Shown piece after piece: positions 1,428-31,404 of a stretch of DNA of 64,000 nucleotides. Numbering within the stretch: the first letter of the stretch is position 1; every line of letters starts with the position of its first letter. Position numbers and translations under genes: made by a program. The notes under the pieces were generated by a model. That model saw only the letters and a program-made list of their open reading frames with translations, did not search any database and was not told the origin of the DNA. This DNA comes from a virus, in the IMG/VR virus record IMGVR_UViG_3300037575_000021, positions 31,314-95,313 of that record; one strand, 5' to 3'.

Positions 1428-2894
1428 CTAGAACGAATAACGTTCTTTGTTAACTGTCTCCAACATCATATCAATTGGCGTTACGTTCTTGCAAGACAAG
1501 ATTGAACGCATGATAGCTGGTGAGAAACCACTTACTAGTGCAGCCCCTTTGTCATTAACAGTCACAGAGCTGTTACCCTCACGAGCTTTAATGTTCCAGA
1601 AGATGATATCAGGTAGTTCATATCCAGCTTCTTGGTATGCACTACTTGCGTACTGTAAGGCTGTCTTATTCCACTTGCCAGCATCGTGACGACCACCGTA
1701 TCCGTAAGAGTTGCCACCTGTACATGAGTCAAACTCCATGTCACTTAAGATCAAGATCTTAGTTGGCATTTCCTCTTGAGGAACTCCTGCTCGTACTGCG
1801 TTGTCAAGCACTGTTTGGAACGCTTTGGCGATATCAGTATTCATACCCCAACCAGAACGTTTGCACTGAAGCATACGATCATACAGGCTCCCGTTCAACT
1901 TAACGAGTTGTGGGCTGCCAGAGAACGTTAAGAATGTATCCTTAAACTTACCTTCAAGTCGTTCTGAGATGTATAAGCCTAAGCTCACAGCTACATCCAT
2001 ACAGGTAACAGTACCGCTTCCGCCTGCAGAGCAACCCATAGATCCACTCACATCTACCATTGGTAGGATTCGTTCATCAGAACCTCCTAGGTAATCTGGT
2101 AAAGCATCCCACTGAGCATTAGCCGCTTGTGACTCACCACGTACCATAGACTTCATGATATCGTATGGGTAAACAGCTCCAGCGTTGATCTTAACTGACT
2201 TAGCAATTTCAGGATCTTTGCTAGTCAATGCATCTAAGTATGCACGGTAACGATCTTCGCAGTTACGTAAGAATGCTTTCTGATAACGTGCTGAAGCAAC
2301 TGAAGGTAGCTTCGAGAAATCGATAGAATCGAAATCCTTAGCTGATAACTTCTGCTCAACTGTATCAGACAAGTTCTTAAGGGCTACACGCCACATCTTA
2401 GGTGTGATGTATCGACCTGTAACTTCCTGAACGTGCTTACGAAGCCCGTTAGCAATTTTCTTCTGACGAGGCATCCACTTGGCACACAGACCATCTTTAG
2501 CCTCTAATGCTGTACGGATCATCTCGTATGCAGCATACTTTGTCTTTTGGTTGGTGAAGACCAATAGGTCATCCCAACGACCAACCTCAGGAATCAAATG
2601 CATGAAGCGTAGAACCTGCGAAGGATCTGTCTTGTCTAGGTACACTAGGAAATCACGGAAAAGTTGGCGTTCACCAGCTCCACCACGAACGTCTCGTGCC
2701 CATAGCATGATTCGGGTTGCTAAATCCTTGTCGCCAGCGTTGTAGGCTGAAGACATAAGATTTACGATATTCTTACCACGAGAGGCACCCACTGCTCCAA
2801 ATAGATCTACACATGGATCCATTGAAGATAGGTTAGTTTTGCCACCGTTGGCTGTGCGGCCTTCTGTATTAAAGGCCTCCATTAATGATGTCAT
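1428..2894 (-). CDS. DUF2828-family TROVE/Ro60-like protein with C-terminal vWA domain
   Basis: Motifs RDVRGGAGER, GRWDDLL, AKWMPR, KINAGAVYPYDI; MIDAS-like DVSGSM; SDMEFD; FWN; VSGFS; GGAGG RBS. Confidence 0.85.
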   Translation of the reverse strand: MTSLMEAFNTEGRTANGGKTNLSSMDPCVDLFGAVGASRGKNIVNLMSSAYNAGDKDLATRIMLWARDVRGGAGERQLFRDFLVYLDKTDPSQVLRFMHLIPEVGRWDDLLVFTNQKTKYAAYEMIRTALEAKDGLCAKWMPRQKKIANGLRKHVQEVTGRYITPKMWRVALKNLSDTVEQKLSAKDFDSIDFSKLPSVASARYQKAFLRNCEDRYRAYLDALTSKDPEIAKSVKINAGAVYPYDIMKSMVRGESQAANAQWDALPDYLGGSDERILPMVDVSGSMGCSAGGSGTVTCMDVAVSLGLYISERLEGKFKDTFLTFSGSPQLVKLNGSLYDRMLQCKRSGWGMNTDIAKAFQTVLDNAVRAGVPQEEMPTKILILSDMEFDSCTGGNSYGYGGRHDAGKWNKTALQYASSAYQEAGYELPDIIFWNIKAREGNSSVTVNDKGAALVSGFSPAIMRSILSCKNVTPIDMMLETVNKERYSF

Positions 2895-2924: not shown

Positions 2925-2953
2925 ATGGTAACACATTTTGTGTTGGTTGTCAA
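2925..2953 (-). promoter_or_regulatory. sigma70-type promoter for the DUF2828 gene
   Basis: TTGACA-N17-TACCAT. Confidence 0.6.
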
Positions 2954-2960
2954 TAGGTTC

Positions 2961-3026
2961 TGAGCAATTTTTGCTTTTCAAGGCTTCCAATAGTTTTGAA
3001 AATAGTATTTTTGCTGAAGTTGCTCA
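2961..3026 (-). ncRNA. Y-like RNA unit A (terminal stem, CAGCAA motif, internal hairpin)
   Basis: TGAGCAA-CTTCAGCAA...TTGCTCA; internal stem TTTTCAA/TTGAAAA. Confidence 0.65.
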
Positions 3027-3044
3027 TTAGTTCTAAATTGTATC

Positions 3045-3108
3045 AGGGCAAATCCTAAACGTAGTTTGATTAAAAGTCAAATGTTTTGGGTATTGCTGTA
3101 GTTGCCCT
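3045..3108 (-). ncRNA. Y-like RNA unit B carrying a tRNA-Lys(UUU) anticodon stem-loop
   Basis: AGGGCAA-CTACAGCAA...TTTGA-CTTTTAA-TCAAA...TTGCCCT. Confidence 0.7.
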
Positions 3109-3165
3109 TTAAGTATTTATCTAGTATAAGCCCTCGTGGGAAGACCTATAGTGGATAATTAAGTC

Positions 3166-3255
3166 AGGCTAATTTGTTTGCACCATTGCAATCTCCAAAG
3201 TTGGCTGGAAATAAAGGAATCGAACCTCTAAAGTTATGTTTGCTGTAGTTAGCCT
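3166..3255 (-). ncRNA. Y-like RNA unit C with a permuted, degenerate tRNA-like domain
   Basis: AGGCTAA-CTACAGCAA; T-arm AGAGG-TTCGATT-CCTTT; acceptor-like ATTTCCA-GCCA...TGGAGAT; D-like TGCAATGGTGCA; closing TTAGCCT. Confidence 0.7.
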
Positions 3256-3267
3256 TTAAATTGTTTC

Positions 3268-3403
3268 AGGTTCCTGTTGTTTGCGTCTGCTGCTCTACCA
3301 ACTGAGCTACCCCTTGTCAATGTAAGTTTAAGTGGTCAAGGGGGCTGGACTCGAACCAGCGACCAACAGTATCCATTAGCATTATTGTTGCTGCAAGGAA
3401 CCT
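3268..3403 (-). ncRNA. Y-like RNA unit D with a complete circularly permuted tRNA body (YrlA-like architecture)
   Basis: AGGTTCCT-TGCAGCAA; tRNA 3' half (TGGTC-GCTGG-TTCGAGT-CCAGC-CCCCTTG-A-CCA) precedes the 5' half (CAAGGGG-TA-GCTCAGTTGGTAGAGC-A-GCAGAC); closing AGGAACCT. Confidence 0.8.
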
Positions 3404-3425: not shown

Positions 3426-3453
3426 ATTATACATACTTTGATGTAAAAGTCAA
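3426..3453 (-). promoter_or_regulatory. sigma70-type promoter upstream of the ncRNA array
   Basis: TTGACT-N16-TATAAT with an AT-rich upstream element. Confidence 0.7.
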
Positions 3454-3565: not shown

Positions 3566-3697
3566 CTATTCAGACTTCCCTTTCTTCTTGGTTGTATCCT
3601 TCGGCTTACGTCGATAGTTAACGCCAGCGTTAGATTTATCTCCCCAAGAATGGGAAAGGAATATGTACTCAAATTCTTTTTGGTATGGTCTTGACAT
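3566..3697 (-). CDS. Small basic protein (43 aa), not in the ORF track
   Basis: GGAGG RBS; MSRPYQKEFEYIFLSHSWGDKSNAGVNYRRKPKDTTKKKGKSE. Confidence 0.55.
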   Translation of the reverse strand: MSRPYQKEFEYIFLSHSWGDKSNAGVNYRRKPKDTTKKKGKSE

Positions 3698-3866: not shown

Positions 3867-4036
3867 ATAAATCTTCTCCCCTGAAAAACTGGTGGGCTTT
3901 GCGCCCACCGAAAGCAATGTTCAAGAATAAACATTACAGAGGAGGGTACTCTTTAGCCCTCAAAGGCTTAAGGATAGACCCAGCTGTTCTGGATATATTC
4001 CTAAACCCTCTAAGATTTCCGAAGATATATATATTA

Positions 4037-4459
4037 AGTATATCACAATTTTTGGATTTGTCAACCCCTAAATTGAAAATAATTTCACTTTTCCTTCATA
4101 TAAGGCTTTCGCCTTCTTTCCCCACCAATAGGGATCCCCTCCGGGGAAGGTCTTACTATAAGGTATAACCATTAGTAATCCTTGCGGAGCTATTAGCTAT
4201 CCTAATAGGATCTACCTTATGGGTTAAACCCTTAAGTCTATATAACTAATTCAATTAATAATCTATTCAAATCAATAACTTAAAGGTAACAACCCTTAAG
4301 GTTTAACCTATTTGATCGATCATTTGTGATTGATTAAGTGAATTAAGCTTAGTCTAAATAGTCATCCTTAAATGGAGAGCCTTTAAGTAATAACCCATAA
4401 GTGTATACCATTATAGCATACAAACTAGGATTTGTCAACCCCTAAATTGAAAATAATTC
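4037..4459 (-). promoter_or_regulatory. Two tandem promoters sharing a ~30-bp direct repeat, upstream of the tRNA region
   Basis: GGATTTGTCAACCCCTAAATTGAAAATAATT at ~4054 and ~4428; TTGACA paired with TATACT and TATAAT respectively. Confidence 0.7.
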
Positions 4460-4569
4460 AAAATTAATTCGATGTGAGCATGTTACATGGCTTTATCCTC
4501 CGTGTCAAGTCTTGACATCTACTGGGTTATCTGTTAGTCTCTTACCTCCTAACTAAGAGGAGGATTGGA

Positions 4570-4989
4570 ATGAGAACAGCTATTATAGTACTATTATTGA
4601 TAATGTCAAGCAATTTATTTGCATCAGATGACAACTTTGAGCTTCACCTAGGACTGAAGACATACCATGTTGACAGATCCCCTAATGAGGATGGGTGTCT
4701 CAACGAGAGTCATGATCTAATTGGTATCAAATACGAGTACTCGATAATGGGAACCTATAGGAATACCCATTGTCGGAGGTCGTTCTACGTAGGGGGATCC
4801 TACCAGATAACGGACAGGTGGGGTGTCGATGCAACCATTGTTAGTGGGTATCCTAAAAAGATGCATAAAATAGGTAGCTTGGTTGTATTCGCATTCCCAA
4901 CCTATACCGTGGGGAACGATAAGGCGGCGGTTAGGTTTATAGTAATCCCCCATATATTGACCGGAGCTGGTCTAATCATTAAATTTTAG
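4570..4989 (+). CDS. Secreted, probable small outer-membrane beta-barrel (PagP-like pattern)
   Basis: Signal peptide, alternating aromatic strands, C-terminal Phe; paralog of 25064-25513. Confidence 0.55.
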   Translation: MRTAIIVLLLIMSSNLFASDDNFELHLGLKTYHVDRSPNEDGCLNESHDLIGIKYEYSIMGTYRNTHCRRSFYVGGSYQITDRWGVDATIVSGYPKKMHKIGSLVVFAFPTYTVGNDKAAVRFIVIPHILTGAGLIIKF

Positions 4990-30800: not shown

Positions 30801-31404
30801 GTCCCCAATACTCATTATTTAGTGTCACTTCGTCTTTCAACCAGTACACAATGTCAGGGCATAGGAACCACTGATAAACCTCTGGGTAATGCTCATAACA
30901 ATCTAGACTTTCTAACTCGTCAATAATGTCCTGCACCTCTTGGCGCTCATCATATAATTCGTCTGAAACTTCAGATAAAAATTCTTCGTAGTCCTCTATA
31001 TATGTAGAGAAATCAATAGGGCCAGCCTTGCGGCGTTCTTCGTAAGACTCGACCCATAACTGGTGCAAATCGTCCTCATTATCAGGGTCAGGCATAGAGT
31101 CAAGTTTTTCTTGATACTCTTCTATTTTCTCGTCTCTTTCTTCCTCTGTTAGTTGGAAGTGCTCACCCTCTAGCTCAATTTCACCCCAGCTTTCATCTAG
31201 CCCACAATCTTCACGGGTAAAAGGTGCATCCTGCCCATGCTCTGTGTGTTCCATGCTTAAGATAAATTCAACCTCTGTGGTCATGTTGTAGCATTGGCGG
31301 GTTCTTACAAATTCATCGGCTATTTCTTGACGTTGGGAGCCATTTAGCTTATCGAAAGATTCAACATAAAGAACTGGCTTATTTGGTAGGTTGATTTTAA
31401 ACAT
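27838..31404 (-). CDS. Cluster of small early-type hypothetical ORFs (27838, 28221, 28571, 28914, 29242, 29501, 29723, 30250, 30425, 30694)
   Basis: Short ORFs, most preceded by their own sigma70 promoter; 29501-29647 and 30250-30396 are 48-aa basic ORFs absent from the track. Confidence 0.6.
28533..28561 (-). promoter_or_regulatory. Promoter with hairpin spacer (further copies at 28889-28917, 29686-29714, 31443-31471)
   Basis: TTGACA-GGCCCCTAGTGGGCCTT-TATCAT. Confidence 0.75.

What the first reader, a model, noticed from the sequence alone, without database searches (positions are those of the whole stretch)
3045..3108. Stand-alone tRNA-Lys(UUU) anticodon stem-loop displayed on a Y-like RNA: possible anticodon-nuclease decoy
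Seen: 3065-3081 on the minus strand reads TTTGA-CTTTTAA-TCAAA, a perfect 5-bp stem with the canonical 7-nt tRNA-Lys(UUU) loop, at the tip of a rod-like RNA. Known: tRNA-Lys(UUU) is the target of the anti-phage anticodon nucleases PrrC and PARIS (AriB). Inference: the RNA is a decoy or inhibitor of such nucleases. It supplies the arm that unit D lacks.
Basis: partly seen in the sequence, partly recalled or inferred. Interest (0 to 1): 0.85.

Follow-up and report, generated by a model that had tools for sequence, protein, structure and literature searches.

The report
Phage small RNA displaying lysine-tRNA anticodon arm
A phage encodes, in front of a gene for a ring-shaped Ro60-like protein, a ~64-base RNA whose tip copies the lysine-tRNA anticodon arm. 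The same design recurs in well over a hundred other phage contigs, so it is a real RNA class that I did not find described, and it may serve as bait in the bacterium-phage fight over tRNAs.

Summary
On the minus strand, 3081-3065 reads TTTGA-CTTTTAA-TCAAA at the tip of a 64-nt stem-closed RNA (3108-3045).

This RNA is the third of four tandem RNAs between a promoter and a DUF2828 gene. The predicted fold of that protein matches only Ro60 proteins over its full length.

All four RNAs share a "handle": a 7-bp closing stem, 3 nt, then CAGCAA. Handle RNAs flank DUF2828 genes in most of 80 related phage loci, always on the gene's strand.

The lysine-type tip is conserved.
- It recurs in about 90 IMG/VR contigs with 38 different covarying closing stems.
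- A scan anchored only on flanking sequence gave a 5-bp stem plus 7-nt loop in 78 of 82 cases.
- The loops were CUUUUAA (50), CUUCUAA (22), CUUGUAA (4) and CUGCUAA (2). A31-U39 was kept in all of them while the rest of the stem covaried.

The tip is not a copy of the phage's own tRNA-Lys, whose stem differs at positions 39-41.

The decoy idea is plausible but untested. Positions 36-41 of the tip equal the E. coli PARIS/AriB cleavage site, and a preprint reports that a Ro60-like protein of phage Bas63, which I infer to be a homologue, counters a defence system.

I found no description in Rfam or in the papers searched. Earlier agents of this scan noted the same RNA-protein pairing on other DNA.

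The parts
3426..3453 (-). Sigma-70-like promoter (TTGACT, 16 nt, TATAAT) just upstream of the RNA array
   Evidence: 11 of 12 matches. Consensus match only; expression was not tested.
3268..3403 (-). Unit 1: handle RNA with a YrlA-type tRNA-like module (T arm, closed acceptor-like stem with ACCA, D arm)
   Evidence: Rfam YrlA RF02553 hit at 3284-3368: 43.5 bits, E 5e-8, below the gathering score of 69, model positions 23-89 only. Found by the handle scan. The acceptor-like stem shows compensatory changes against L003/L004.
3166..3255 (-). Unit 2: handle RNA with a T-arm-like hairpin, a closed acceptor-like stem (loop contains GCCA) and a minimal D-like hairpin
   Evidence: Handle scan and a weak CM R1 hit of 20.7 bits. 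In the 95%-identical relatives L003/L004 a different unit occupies this position, and the homologue of unit 2 lies elsewhere in their array.
3125..3150 (-). 11-bp hairpin in the spacer between units 2 and 3; role unknown
   Evidence: Predicted. Three positions change compensatorily in L003/L004.
3045..3108 (-). Unit 3, the finding: handle (AGGGCAA, CTA, CAGCAA ... TTGCCCT), an intermediate helix, and the anticodon-arm mimic
   Evidence: CM R1: 45.1 bits, E 6e-8. 100% identical in L003/L004. Homologous units in Aeromonas phage LAh_8, Vibrio phage EniLVp02 and Pseudomonas phage Milchi.
3065..3081 (-). Anticodon stem-loop mimic: a 5-bp stem (TTTGA/TCAAA) around the loop CUUUUAA, read as C32 U33 U34 U35 U36 A37 A38, with A31-U39
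   Evidence: The loop and the A31-U39 pair are invariant across the family while the rest of the stem covaries.
2961..3026 (-). Unit 4: handle RNA (TGAGCAA, CTT, CAGCAA ... TTGCTCA) with a tip that is not anticodon-like
   Evidence: Handle scan, CM R1 18.9 bits, fold.
2925..2953 (-). Promoter-like site (TTGACA, 17 nt, TACCAT, with TG) in front of the protein gene
   Evidence: 10 of 12 matches. Consensus match only.
1428..2894 (-). DUF2828 + DUF7788 protein, 488 aa: a Ro60-like HEAT-repeat ring plus a vWA domain with an intact MIDAS motif
   Evidence: Pfam PF11443 (7e-21) and PF25043 (1e-45). AlphaFold2 model with mean pLDDT 81. The 13 best PDB matches are all Ro60 proteins over the full length, E 1e-7 to 1e-4. 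D281, S283, S285, T353 and D385 are invariant in 26 sequences.

Best explanation
Unit 3 (3108-3045, minus strand) is a small non-coding RNA of a widespread class that I did not find described. I call its members "handle RNAs".

Structural reading:
- The RNA ends form a 7-bp stem, followed on the 5' strand by 3 nt and an unpaired CAGCAA.
- This handle is the likely docking site for the adjacent Ro60-like DUF2828 protein, as the Y-RNA stem docks on Ro60.
- The distal end is a free module. Here it is a mimic of the tRNA-Lys(UUU) anticodon arm: a 5-bp stem with loop C32-U33-U34-U35-U36-A37-A38 and A31-U39.

Proposed function (inferred): the particle presents this arm as bait for a host factor that reads the anticodon loop of Lys-type, ANN-decoding tRNAs. 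The most likely factor is an anticodon nuclease of an anti-phage system of the PrrC, RloC or PARIS/AriB kind. The particle would titrate or trap the nuclease, possibly with help from the protein's vWA/MIDAS domain. Translation would then run on the phage's own tRNAs, including a tRNA-Lys with a different anticodon stem.

Shown here: the structure, the conservation, the linkage to the protein gene and the protein fold. Inferred: RNA-protein binding, expression as a discrete RNA, and the identity of the partner. The confidence given (0.45) is for the whole statement including the nuclease-bait function; the structural part alone I hold at about 0.9.
For: Linkage to the protein gene:
- Handle units flank DUF2828 genes in most of 80 related IMG/VR loci and in cultured phages. 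The scan found 477 units against 39 in shuffled DNA.
- All 118 covariance-model hits lie on the gene's strand.
- A DUF2828 homologue is present in 38 of 50 records that carry a Lys-tip unit, and in 13 of 14 records at least 90% complete. The background is 711 of 50,697 phage records.

Protein:
- Its predicted fold matches only Ro60 proteins over the full length, and the MIDAS residues are conserved.

The tip is under selection:
- 69 of 76 distinct Lys-tip contexts close with a 7-bp stem, against 9 of 76 in the control, and use 38 different stems.
- With the arm's stem left free, CTTTTAA is still flanked by a perfect 5-bp stem in most of 76 units, and that stem covaries: TTTGA/TCAAA 26, TTCAA/TTGAA 11, TTAGA/TCTAA 8.
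- With only the flanks fixed, 78 of 82 contexts are anticodon arms with C32, U33, U36, A37, A38 and A31-U39.
- Covariation score 0.438 against 0.098 in shuffles, exceeded by 0 of 500 shuffles.
- In loci chosen only through the protein, 11 of 78 small units carry a perfect canonical anticodon arm, against 2 of 780 shuffled, and Lys is the commonest type.

Link to tRNA-targeting defence:
- Positions 36-41 of the tip are UAAUCA, the E. coli tRNA-Lys AriB site U36AAUC|A41. U39 is essential for AriB cleavage, and the UAAU motif is shared by AriB's targets Lys(UUU), Thr(UGU) and Asn(GUU) (PMC12409363).
- The phage's own tRNA-Lys(UUU), just outside the window, has CCG at 39-41.
- Only 2 of 51 phage tRNA-Lys genes in these loci have the UUGA/UCAA stem.
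- The genome has no RtcB and no PF09414-type RNA ligase to repair cut tRNA. The T4 Rnl1 family search was uninformative.
- In Bas63, a Felixounavirus, the Ro60-like gp130 sits directly upstream of the tRNA array and counters the Ppl defence system (preprint PMC11482910). FelixO1 has its DUF2828 gene in that position.
Against: - There is no experimental or direct computational evidence that any nuclease binds this RNA, or that the RNA binds the protein.
- AriB needs D-loop contacts (U16-U17) in addition to its cleavage site. A bare arm may therefore bind poorly or not be recognised.
- The arm's stem is not fixed to the E. coli-type sequence. UCA at 39-41 occurs in under half of the units.
- Within one homologous subfamily position 35 varies (U 50, C 22, G 4). 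This could mean relaxed constraint rather than lysine specificity.
- Many handle RNAs have tips unrelated to anticodon arms, and many DUF2828 phages have no Lys-type unit, among them FelixO1, KVP40, Aeh1 and MsGreen.
- Whether a phage's own tRNA-Lys has an altered 31-39 pair does not depend on the presence of a Lys-tip unit: G-C in 58% with a unit and 50% without.
- The defence that Bas63 gp130 counters, Ppl, is not known to cut tRNA.
Confidence: 0.45

Rival explanations
1. Tether or sponge for a tRNA-handling enzyme rather than a defence nuclease. The handle holds the Ro60-like ring. The anticodon arm recruits or titrates an enzyme that recognises C32-U33...U36-A37-A38, such as the t6A37 or wobble-U34 modification enzymes, or an aminoacyl-tRNA synthetase anticodon-binding domain. 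This would parallel YrlA, whose tRNA-like domain is a substrate of tRNA-modifying enzymes, and the Y RNAs that tether PNPase to Ro60.
For: - The invariant positions C32, U33, U36, A37, A38 and A31-U39, with variable positions 34-35 (UUU, UCU, UGU, GCU), define the ANN-decoding tRNA class as a whole rather than lysine alone.
- YrlA RNAs are modified by tRNA enzymes (Chen et al. 2014).
- Phage phiLo Ro60 forms a complex with its Y-like RNAs and host PNPase (PMC12135203).
Against: - No benefit to a phage from titrating such enzymes is known.
- In the protein-anchored sample about half of the anticodon-like tips are not ANN types: Tyr, Phe, Ser(GGA), Glu.
- A change at position 35 would abolish synthetase recognition, yet it occurs within one subfamily.
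Confidence: 0.2
2. Sacrificial sensor or quality-control cofactor. The anticodon arm is cut by the same nuclease that cuts host tRNA. Cutting changes the particle, for example by freeing the Ro60-like ring to bind damaged RNA ends or to recruit an exoribonuclease. The particle would then manage tRNA fragments or signal the attack rather than inhibit the nuclease.
For: - In bacteria Ro60 and Y RNAs are genetically linked to the RtcB repair operon, which is regulated by damaged tRNAs (PMC7790460, abstract seen).
- Listeria phage LP-125 has an RtcB-like ligase about 1.3 kb downstream of its DUF2828 gene.
- Ro60 rings bind misfolded RNA ends (PDB titles).
Against: - This phage has no RtcB and no PF09414-type RNA ligase.
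- Nothing indicates that the RNA is cut.
- The model needs several unobserved steps.
Confidence: 0.15
3. The tip has no function of its own. Handle RNAs are the protein's partners, and their distal parts are leftovers of tRNA genes picked up by recombination inside tRNA arrays. The anticodon-arm shape is then inherited rather than selected.
For: - Units sit inside or beside tRNA arrays, and modules are shuffled even between 95%-identical phages.
- Other units carry T arms, D arms or whole tRNA bodies.
- Many tips are not tRNA-like.
Against: - The 7-nt loop and A31-U39 stay fixed while the arm's stem and the closing stem change compensatorily across many lineages.
- The arm is not a copy of the phages' own tRNA-Lys arms.
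- UCU-type tips all keep A31-U39, whereas only 7 of 67 phage tRNA-Arg(UCU) genes do.
Confidence: 0.07
4. A DNA-level signal or a chance match. TTGACT in the hairpin is a -35 box of a promoter (TTGACT, 17 nt, TAGGAT at 3080-3052), or the hairpin is a chance inverted repeat.
For: The promoter scan lists this site at 9 of 12 matches. The fold z-score is only -1.6.
Against: - Related units lose TTGACT (TTCAA, TTAGA and TTGAA stems) but keep the pairing.
- No -10 element is conserved at the right spacing in other units.
- Promoter-like sites are no more frequent than in shuffles: 14 against 10.1 +/- 3.7.
- The covariation statistics exclude chance.
Confidence: 0.02

Closest known systems
Ro60 (Rsr/TROVE2) with Y RNAs, especially bacterial and phage YrlA (Rfam RF02553; Chen et al. 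2014, PMC4201824)
   Same: - Small RNAs are encoded beside, and on the strand of, a ring-shaped Ro60-fold protein with a vWA domain.
- The RNA ends pair into a stem next to a conserved unpaired motif.
- The distal module mimics parts of tRNA. Unit 1 of this array matches the tRNA-like core of the YrlA model.
   Different: - The protein is DUF2828, only 12-16% identical to solved Ro60 proteins over the structural alignments.
- The handle (stem, NNN, CAGCAA) does not match the Ro-binding part of the YrlA model.
- YrlA mimics the T arm, D arm and acceptor stem and has no anticodon arm. Unit 3 is the reverse: an anticodon arm and nothing else.
- The units come in arrays of up to 7-8 per locus.
Thermus phage phiLo Ro60 with Yrl1/Yrl2 RNAs and host PNPase (PMC12135203; PDB 9KOP, 9L5Y)
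   Same: It is a phage-encoded Ro60 homologue with partner RNAs encoded upstream of its gene, and its authors propose that it subverts host functions. It is the best structural match to the window's protein.
   Different: The Yrl RNAs were identified by a CGAA motif in a bulge, not by CAGCAA. No anticodon-arm mimic is reported.
Bas63 (Felixounavirus) gp130, a Ro60-like protein that counters the Ppl defence system (PhageMaP preprint, PMC11482910)
   Same: The gene lies directly upstream of the tRNA array, as the DUF2828 gene does in FelixO1. The authors guessed that some neighbouring "tRNAs" are Y RNAs. This is the only experimental phenotype I found for what appears to be this protein family.
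   Different: The RNAs were not identified there. Ppl is not known to target tRNA. FelixO1 has handle RNAs but none with a Lys tip. That gp130 is a DUF2828 protein is inferred from synteny and taxonomy, not tested.
Phage tRNAs that escape anticodon nucleases (T5 tRNA-Lys, tRNA-Thr and tRNA-Asn against PARIS/AriB; PMC11464382, PMC12409363)
   Same: The same battleground. The window's phage also carries its own tRNA-Lys(UUU) with changes at positions 39 and 41, the positions that make the T5 tRNA resistant.
   Different: Those are functional replacement tRNAs. Unit 3 cannot be charged, because it has no acceptor, D or T arm, and it keeps the susceptible-type sequence.
   Same: The concept is the same: a phage-made RNA copy of a molecule that a host defence protein recognises.
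   Different: Those decoys mimic the defence system's own RNA component. This one would mimic the cellular target and is displayed on a protein ring.
Dictyostelium Class I RNAs (PMC7919456)
   Same: They are about 60 nt long, with a short stem joining the two ends and an 11-nt motif next to the 5' strand of the stem. The motif has T, C, C, A, A conserved at positions 3, 6, 9, 10 and 11, which fits ccTtaCagCAA. The middle is variable, the 5' G is conserved, and the 3' end is CUGU. The phage consensus is AGGAU.. yUw CAGCAA ... AUCCU-G-U.
   Different: They belong to a eukaryote, and their known binding protein is an RRM protein. The motif's letters are given in a figure that I could not read. 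A link to DUF2828 proteins was not tested here.

Membership tests
Handle RNAs associated with DUF2828 (defined here; covariance model R1) | A closing stem of 7 bp joining the 5' and 3' ends, covarying between members | tested here: met
   AGGGCAA/TTGCCCT in the window. Helix 1 is 98.5% paired, and all 7 pairs show changes on both sides.
Handle RNAs associated with DUF2828 (defined here; covariance model R1) | An unpaired CAGCAA 2-4 nt after the 5' strand of the stem, and a G after the 3' strand | tested here: met
   CTA-CAGCAA at 3101-3093 and TTGCCCT-G at 3051-3044. Position frequencies over 396 units are.
Handle RNAs associated with DUF2828 (defined here; covariance model R1) | Encoded near a DUF2828 gene and on its strand | tested here: met
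   The unit lies 151 nt upstream of the start codon at 2894, on the same strand. All 118 model hits are on the gene's strand. Co-occurrence is 13 of 14 in near-complete genomes.
Handle RNAs associated with DUF2828 (defined here; covariance model R1) | A significant score against a model that does not include the window | tested here: met
   45.1 bits, E 6.3e-8 over 633 kb on both strands. The shortened calibration makes E-values rough.
Y RNA / YrlA (Rfam RF02553) | A match to the family's covariance model, including the Ro-binding stem | tested here: not met
   No YrlA hit at 3045-3108 even at E up to 10. Only unit 1 hits, below the gathering score and only over model positions 23-89.
Y RNA / YrlA (Rfam RF02553) | A tRNA-like domain with T arm, D arm and acceptor-like stem | tested here: not met
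   Unit 3 holds only an anticodon-arm mimic.
Y RNA / YrlA (Rfam RF02553) | Physical binding to a Ro60 orthologue | not testable with these tools
   The neighbouring protein has the Ro60 fold. Binding needs co-purification or a gel-shift assay.
tRNA (RF00005) | A cloverleaf with acceptor, D, anticodon and T arms | tested here: not met
   ARAGORN and Rfam find 10 tRNAs in the window and none at 3045-3108.
Substrate or ligand of the PARIS AriB nuclease | The sequence U36-A-A-U-C-A41 around the cleavage site | tested here: met
   The tip reads C-U-U-U-U-A-A-U-C-A-A-A. The site is as given in PMC12409363.
Substrate or ligand of the PARIS AriB nuclease | D-loop contacts (U16-U17) with the second AriB subunit | tested here: not met
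   Unit 3 has no D arm. The requirement is described. This argues against cleavage, but not necessarily against binding.
Substrate or ligand of the PrrC/RloC anticodon nucleases | A tRNA-Lys-type 7-nt loop with anticodon UUU on a 5-bp stem. By my recollection, not checked here, stem-loop analogues are cleaved by PrrC in vitro and the wobble modification matters. | tested here: inconclusive
   The sequence and shape are present. The modification state and recognition cannot be tested with these tools.
Ro60/TROVE protein family (for the neighbouring gene) | A HEAT-repeat ring plus a vWA domain with a MIDAS motif | tested here: met
   The Foldseek top 13 are all Ro60 proteins, aligned over 526-584 columns. 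DxSxS, T and D are invariant. The profile search against PDB sequences finds only Ro60 proteins, weakly (E 0.03-0.2).

The most novel reading that the evidence does not exclude
DUF2828 rings and handle RNAs form a modular phage platform. Interchangeable tRNA parts (whole anticodon arms of Lys, Arg-UCU, Thr, Ser, Tyr, Met, Asn and others) are plugged onto one protein-docking handle and displayed as baits. This would be an RNA-based sponge against the many defence nucleases that cut tRNA anticodon loops, with specificity reset by single-base changes in the loop. The same handle design may be ancient enough to reappear in the unexplained Class I RNAs of Dictyostelium.
Probability: 0.35. Interest if true: 0.92.

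Novelty: new variant of a known kind. Interest (0 to 1): 0.8.

Why it matters
tRNA cleavage has recently emerged as a major mode of bacterial immunity (PrrC, RloC, PARIS, retron/Septu PtuAB, Cas13, Schlafen, OLD). The phage answers known so far are replacement tRNAs and tRNA repair.

A protein-displayed RNA copy of the target's anticodon arm would be a third, RNA-based strategy. It would also give a function to a large family of phage Ro60-like proteins. That family is present in 711 of 50,697 phage records, including FelixO1-like, KVP40-like, Listeria, Staphylococcus, Campylobacter and mycobacterial phages, where the genes are annotated as hypothetical or "RNA-binding protein".

It would extend the Y-RNA concept from T/D/acceptor mimicry to anticodon-arm mimicry. 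It also offers cultured systems in which to test it: Aeromonas LAh_8, Vibrio EniLVp02 and Pseudomonas Milchi.

Independently of mechanism, these units are mis-annotated or unannotated in public records. Some are called tRNA-OTHER or pseudo-tRNA, and some are overlapped by wrong CDS starts. No Rfam family reached E 10 at unit 3.

Tried and rejected
1. tRNA gene or pseudogene: ARAGORN and Rfam find nothing at the site.
2. Copy of the phage's own tRNA-Lys arm: its stem is TTCGG/CCGAT, not TTTGA/TCAAA. Only 2 of 51 phage tRNA-Lys genes in related loci share the UUGA/UCAA stem.
3. Promoter reading of TTGACT: not conserved in relatives.
4. Thermodynamic support: weak (z = -1.6 for the unit and -1.8 for the array), so I relied on covariation instead.
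5. RNA-repair genes in the phage: RtcB and PF09414 are absent. The PF09511 search was uninformative because the controls did not respond.
6. Test of whether phages with a Lys-tip unit more often carry an altered own tRNA-Lys: no difference.
7. Lys-tip units in FelixO1, S13, KVP40, Aeh1 and MsGreen: none. The one S13 match is an isolated hit about 70 kb from its DUF2828 gene, which I did not inspect.
8. An 18-nt exact match to the handle in 115 Synechococcus phages: in the one record I opened it lies inside a coding region, so I treat it as chance.
9. MAFFT alignments of the units leave the 3' stems out of register. I solved this by building a covariance model from 10 seeds in register.
10. MFE-based detection of tips misses weak AU-rich arms, including the LAh_8 Lys arm. 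I replaced it with direct stem-and-loop pattern detection, checked against shuffled controls.
11. Literature searches on DUF2828, YrlA with phage, Ro60 with anticodon, decoy with anticodon nuclease, and Ppl found no description of these RNAs.
Full report
**What is in the window**

The window is bases 31314-95313 of a 95.3-kb IMG/VR phage record that CheckV rates as complete. Everything relevant lies on the minus strand, in this order:
- tRNA-Asn and tRNA-Ser;
- a strong sigma-70-like promoter at 3453-3426;
- four tandem stem-closed RNA units: U1 3403-3268, U2 3255-3166, U3 3108-3045 and U4 3026-2961;
- a second promoter-like site;
- a 488-aa gene at 2894-1428 with Pfam DUF2828 and DUF7788 domains;
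- eight more tRNA genes.

The whole genome has 20 tRNA genes.

The bases at 3081-3065 read TTTGA-CTTTTAA-TCAAA exactly. This is the only such site in the window, against 0.04 expected by chance. The minimum-free-energy fold places the hairpin at the tip of a rod closed by AGGGCAA/TTGCCCT. The energy z-score is only -1.6, so folding energy alone would not carry the case.

**The four units share a handle**

Each unit begins with a 7-bp stem strand followed by 3 nt and CAGCAA, and ends with the complementary strand followed by G.
- U1 matches the tRNA-like core of Rfam YrlA (43.5 bits, E 5e-8, below the gathering score, model positions 23-89 only) but not its Ro-binding stem.
- U2 has a T-arm-like hairpin and a closed acceptor-like stem.
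- U3 carries only the anticodon-arm mimic.
- U4 has an unrelated tip.

Two phages whose protein is 95% identical (L003, L004) have U3 unchanged. They carry a different unit in place of U2, and U1 shows compensatory changes in them.

**The neighbouring protein is Ro60-like**
- A profile of ten homologues finds only Ro60 proteins among PDB sequences, weakly (E 0.03-0.2).
- An AlphaFold2 model (mean pLDDT 81) matches Ro60 proteins over its full length in the 13 best Foldseek hits: phage phiLo Ro60, Xenopus and human Ro60, and Deinococcus Rsr, with E 1e-7 to 1e-4. Only isolated vWA domains follow.
- The MIDAS residues are invariant in 26 homologues.
- Homologues occur in 711 of 50,697 phage records across very different phage groups.

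**The handle travels with the protein**

I fetched 80 IMG/VR loci through the protein alone, plus 12 cultured-phage loci.
- A simple scan for stem + CAGCAA + closing stem found 477 units, against 39 in shuffled DNA.
- A covariance model built from ten Lys-tip units of other phages found 118 hits at E up to 1 in these loci. All are on the strand of the DUF2828 gene, mostly just upstream or downstream of it. Window U3 scores 45.1 bits, E 6e-8.
- On the model-fitted alignment 95.9% of cells pair, against 63% in shuffles. All 15 pairs change on both sides. The covariation score is 0.438, against 0.098 in shuffles and about 0.04 with partners slid. Because the alignment is fitted to the model, this leans towards the structure.
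- Two counts that do not depend on the model agree. First, 69 of 76 distinct contexts found through CAGCAA plus the Lys arm alone close with a 7-bp stem, against 9 of 76 in the control, and use 38 different stems. Second, a DUF2828 homologue is present in 38 of 50 records that hold such a unit, and in 13 of 14 records at least 90% complete. The exception, L160, looks like part of a tRNA-like sequence rather than a stem-closed handle unit.

**The anticodon-arm tip is selected, not accidental**
- In loci chosen only through the protein, 11 of 78 small units contain a perfect 5-bp stem around a canonical loop (pyrimidine-32, U33, purine-37), against 2 of 780 shuffled. Lys(UUU) is the commonest, followed by Met, Ser, Tyr, Thr, Phe and others.
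- Aeromonas phage LAh_8, whose protein is 41% identical, has a unit with the same 20-nt core as the window, a different covarying closing stem and a similar intermediate helix. Vibrio phage EniLVp02 and Pseudomonas phage Milchi carry such units too.
- A scan that fixed the handle and the loop but left the arm's stem free returned 76 closed units. Most have CTTTTAA flanked by a perfect 5-bp stem that covaries: TTTGA/TCAAA 26, TTCAA/TTGAA 11, TTAGA/TCTAA 8, TTTCA/TGAAA 3.
- A scan that fixed only the sequences flanking the arm returned 82 contexts. Of these, 78 are 5-bp stems with 7-nt loops: CUUUUAA 50, CUUCUAA 22, CUUGUAA 4, CUGCUAA 2.
- The conserved frame is therefore A31, C32-U33, N34-N35, U36-A37-A38, U39. 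Position 35 is variable and position 34 less so.
- The UCU tips are not copies of tRNA-Arg arms. Only 7 of 67 phage tRNA-Arg(UCU) genes have A31-U39, whereas all the tips do.
- Over all loci fetched, 204 of 489 distinct small units carry a canonical arm, against 19 of 1467 shuffled. This total is inflated for Lys by the way the loci were found.

**Relation to tRNA-targeting defence**
- The PARIS nuclease AriB cuts E. coli tRNA-Lys(UUU) at U36AAUC|A41. U39 is essential and A41 important. The UAAU motif is shared with its other targets, Thr(UGU) and Asn(GUU). The resistant T5 tRNA-Lys has AAACC (PMC12409363).
- Window U3 reads UAAUCA at 36-41.
- The phage's own tRNA-Lys(UUU), at record bases 30906-30979 just outside the window, reads UAACCG.
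- Of the distinct phage tRNA-Lys(UUU) genes in the fetched contigs, 41 of 84 have G31-C39 and 37 have A31-U39.
- AriB also needs the D loop. Fewer than half of the Lys-type tips have UCA at 39-41. Carriage of a Lys unit does not predict an altered own tRNA-Lys.
- The phage has no RtcB and no PF09414-type RNA ligase.
- A preprint reports that the Ro60-like gp130 of the Felixounavirus Bas63 lies directly upstream of its tRNA array and counters the Ppl defence. Its authors guessed that some neighbouring "tRNAs" are Y RNAs. FelixO1 has its DUF2828 gene in that position together with handle units, and Bas63 is a Felixounavirus. That gp130 is a DUF2828 protein is my inference.

**Interpretation**

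I hold the structural part with about 0.9 confidence. Unit 3 is a partner RNA of the Ro60-like protein, in a conserved class whose tip mimics an anticodon arm.

I hold the functional part with about 0.45. The particle would act as bait or trap for an anticodon-loop-reading defence nuclease.

The rivals are a tether or sponge for tRNA-modifying enzymes or synthetases (0.2), a sacrificial sensor or quality-control cofactor (0.15), an inherited tRNA remnant without its own function (0.07), and a DNA signal or chance (0.02).

Lys units are accompanied by T-arm-bearing units in 37 of 82 loci, and I saw none beside them in LAh_8.

**Novelty**

Rfam has no family reaching E 10 at unit 3. Searches on DUF2828, YrlA with phage, Ro60 with anticodon, decoy with anticodon nuclease, and a November 2026 review of phage countermeasures gave no description of these RNAs.

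The kind is known: Ro60 with Y RNAs that mimic tRNA, described by Chen et al. 2014 and for phage phiLo Ro60. The handle, the protein subfamily, the array organisation and the anticodon-arm display are new variants of that kind.

This scan has noted the same pairing before on other DNA. One search lists about 129 notes. I reached my reading before consulting them and tested it independently here.

Noticed in passing
Own genome record, bases 30906-30979 (minus strand), about 335 nt before the window start: The phage's own tRNA-Lys(UUU) has the anticodon stem TTCGG/CCGAT, which gives G31-C39 and CCG at positions 39-41. Positions 39 and 41 are those that make the T5 tRNA-Lys resistant to AriB. In the fetched contigs 41 of 84 distinct phage tRNA-Lys(UUU) genes have G31-C39.
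   Followed up: partly
window 3125-3150 (-): An 11-bp hairpin lies in the spacer between units 2 and 3, preceded by CCACTATAGG. Three of its pairs change compensatorily in L003/L004. It has no handle motif. It may be a processing or termination signal; its role is unknown.
   Followed up: no
L004:1873-2934 compared with window 2961-3403: Phages whose DUF2828 protein is 95% identical differ in array content. L003/L004 have six handle units, including two extra YrlA-type units. The window's unit 2 homologue sits at another position there, next to a tRNA-Asn(ATT)-like gene. Units therefore behave as shuffled cassettes.
   Followed up: partly
L006:4395-4515 and 4525-4637 (Cronobacter phage S13); L005:4391-4505; L368 about 565-690 (Vibrio phage EniLVp02): These 113-121-nt genes are annotated tRNA-Ser, tRNA-OTHER or pseudo-tRNA. 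They have a normal acceptor stem, D arm and T arm, but carry a long hairpin with the handle motifs (ACGCAAAC ... CAGCA) in place of the anticodon arm. This is the circularly permuted counterpart of YrlA-type units.
   Followed up: partly
L015:935-1486 (Listeria phage LP-125): A ROOL RNA match (87.4 bits, below the gathering score of 99.1) lies about 1 kb upstream of the DUF2828 gene. Two small handle units (2129-2184 and 2216-2271) lie in between, and an RtcB-like ligase gene about 1.3 kb downstream.
   Followed up: no
L011:2375-2490 (Aeromonas phage LAh_8): The annotated DUF2828 CDS starts at 2399 and overlaps two handle RNA units (2375-2429 and 2440-2490, the latter with a CAU Met-type loop). 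The protein similarity starts at 2501, so the annotated start is probably too early. The phage has at least seven handle units upstream of the gene.
   Followed up: partly
L079:203-300 and L067:1858-1956: A third topology: the handle stem replaces the acceptor stem of an otherwise tRNA-like body (D arm, anticodon arm with loop CUUCUAA or CAUCAAA, T arm).
   Followed up: no
Handle consensus compared with Dictyostelium Class I RNAs (PMC7919456): The phage handle (5' G-rich stem, yUwCAGCAA, variable middle, 3' stem, then G-U) fits the published description of the ~60-nt Dictyostelium Class I RNAs. Those have a stem joining the ends, an 11-nt motif with T3, C6, C9, A10 and A11 conserved, and a CUGU 3' end. 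I checked only the paper's text.
   Followed up: partly
L014:4058-4166, 3973-4021 and 4174-4228 (Mycobacterium phage MsGreen): Downstream of the "Ro-like RNA binding protein" gene lie a YrlA hit (39.3 bits) and two small handle units. One of these has a Ser(GCU)-type arm, TTTCA-CTGCTAA-TGAAA. The tips are AT-rich.
   Followed up: no
window 3574-3696 (-): A 41-codon ORF between tRNA-Asn and tRNA-Ser has no Pfam match. Whether it is coding is unknown.
   Followed up: no
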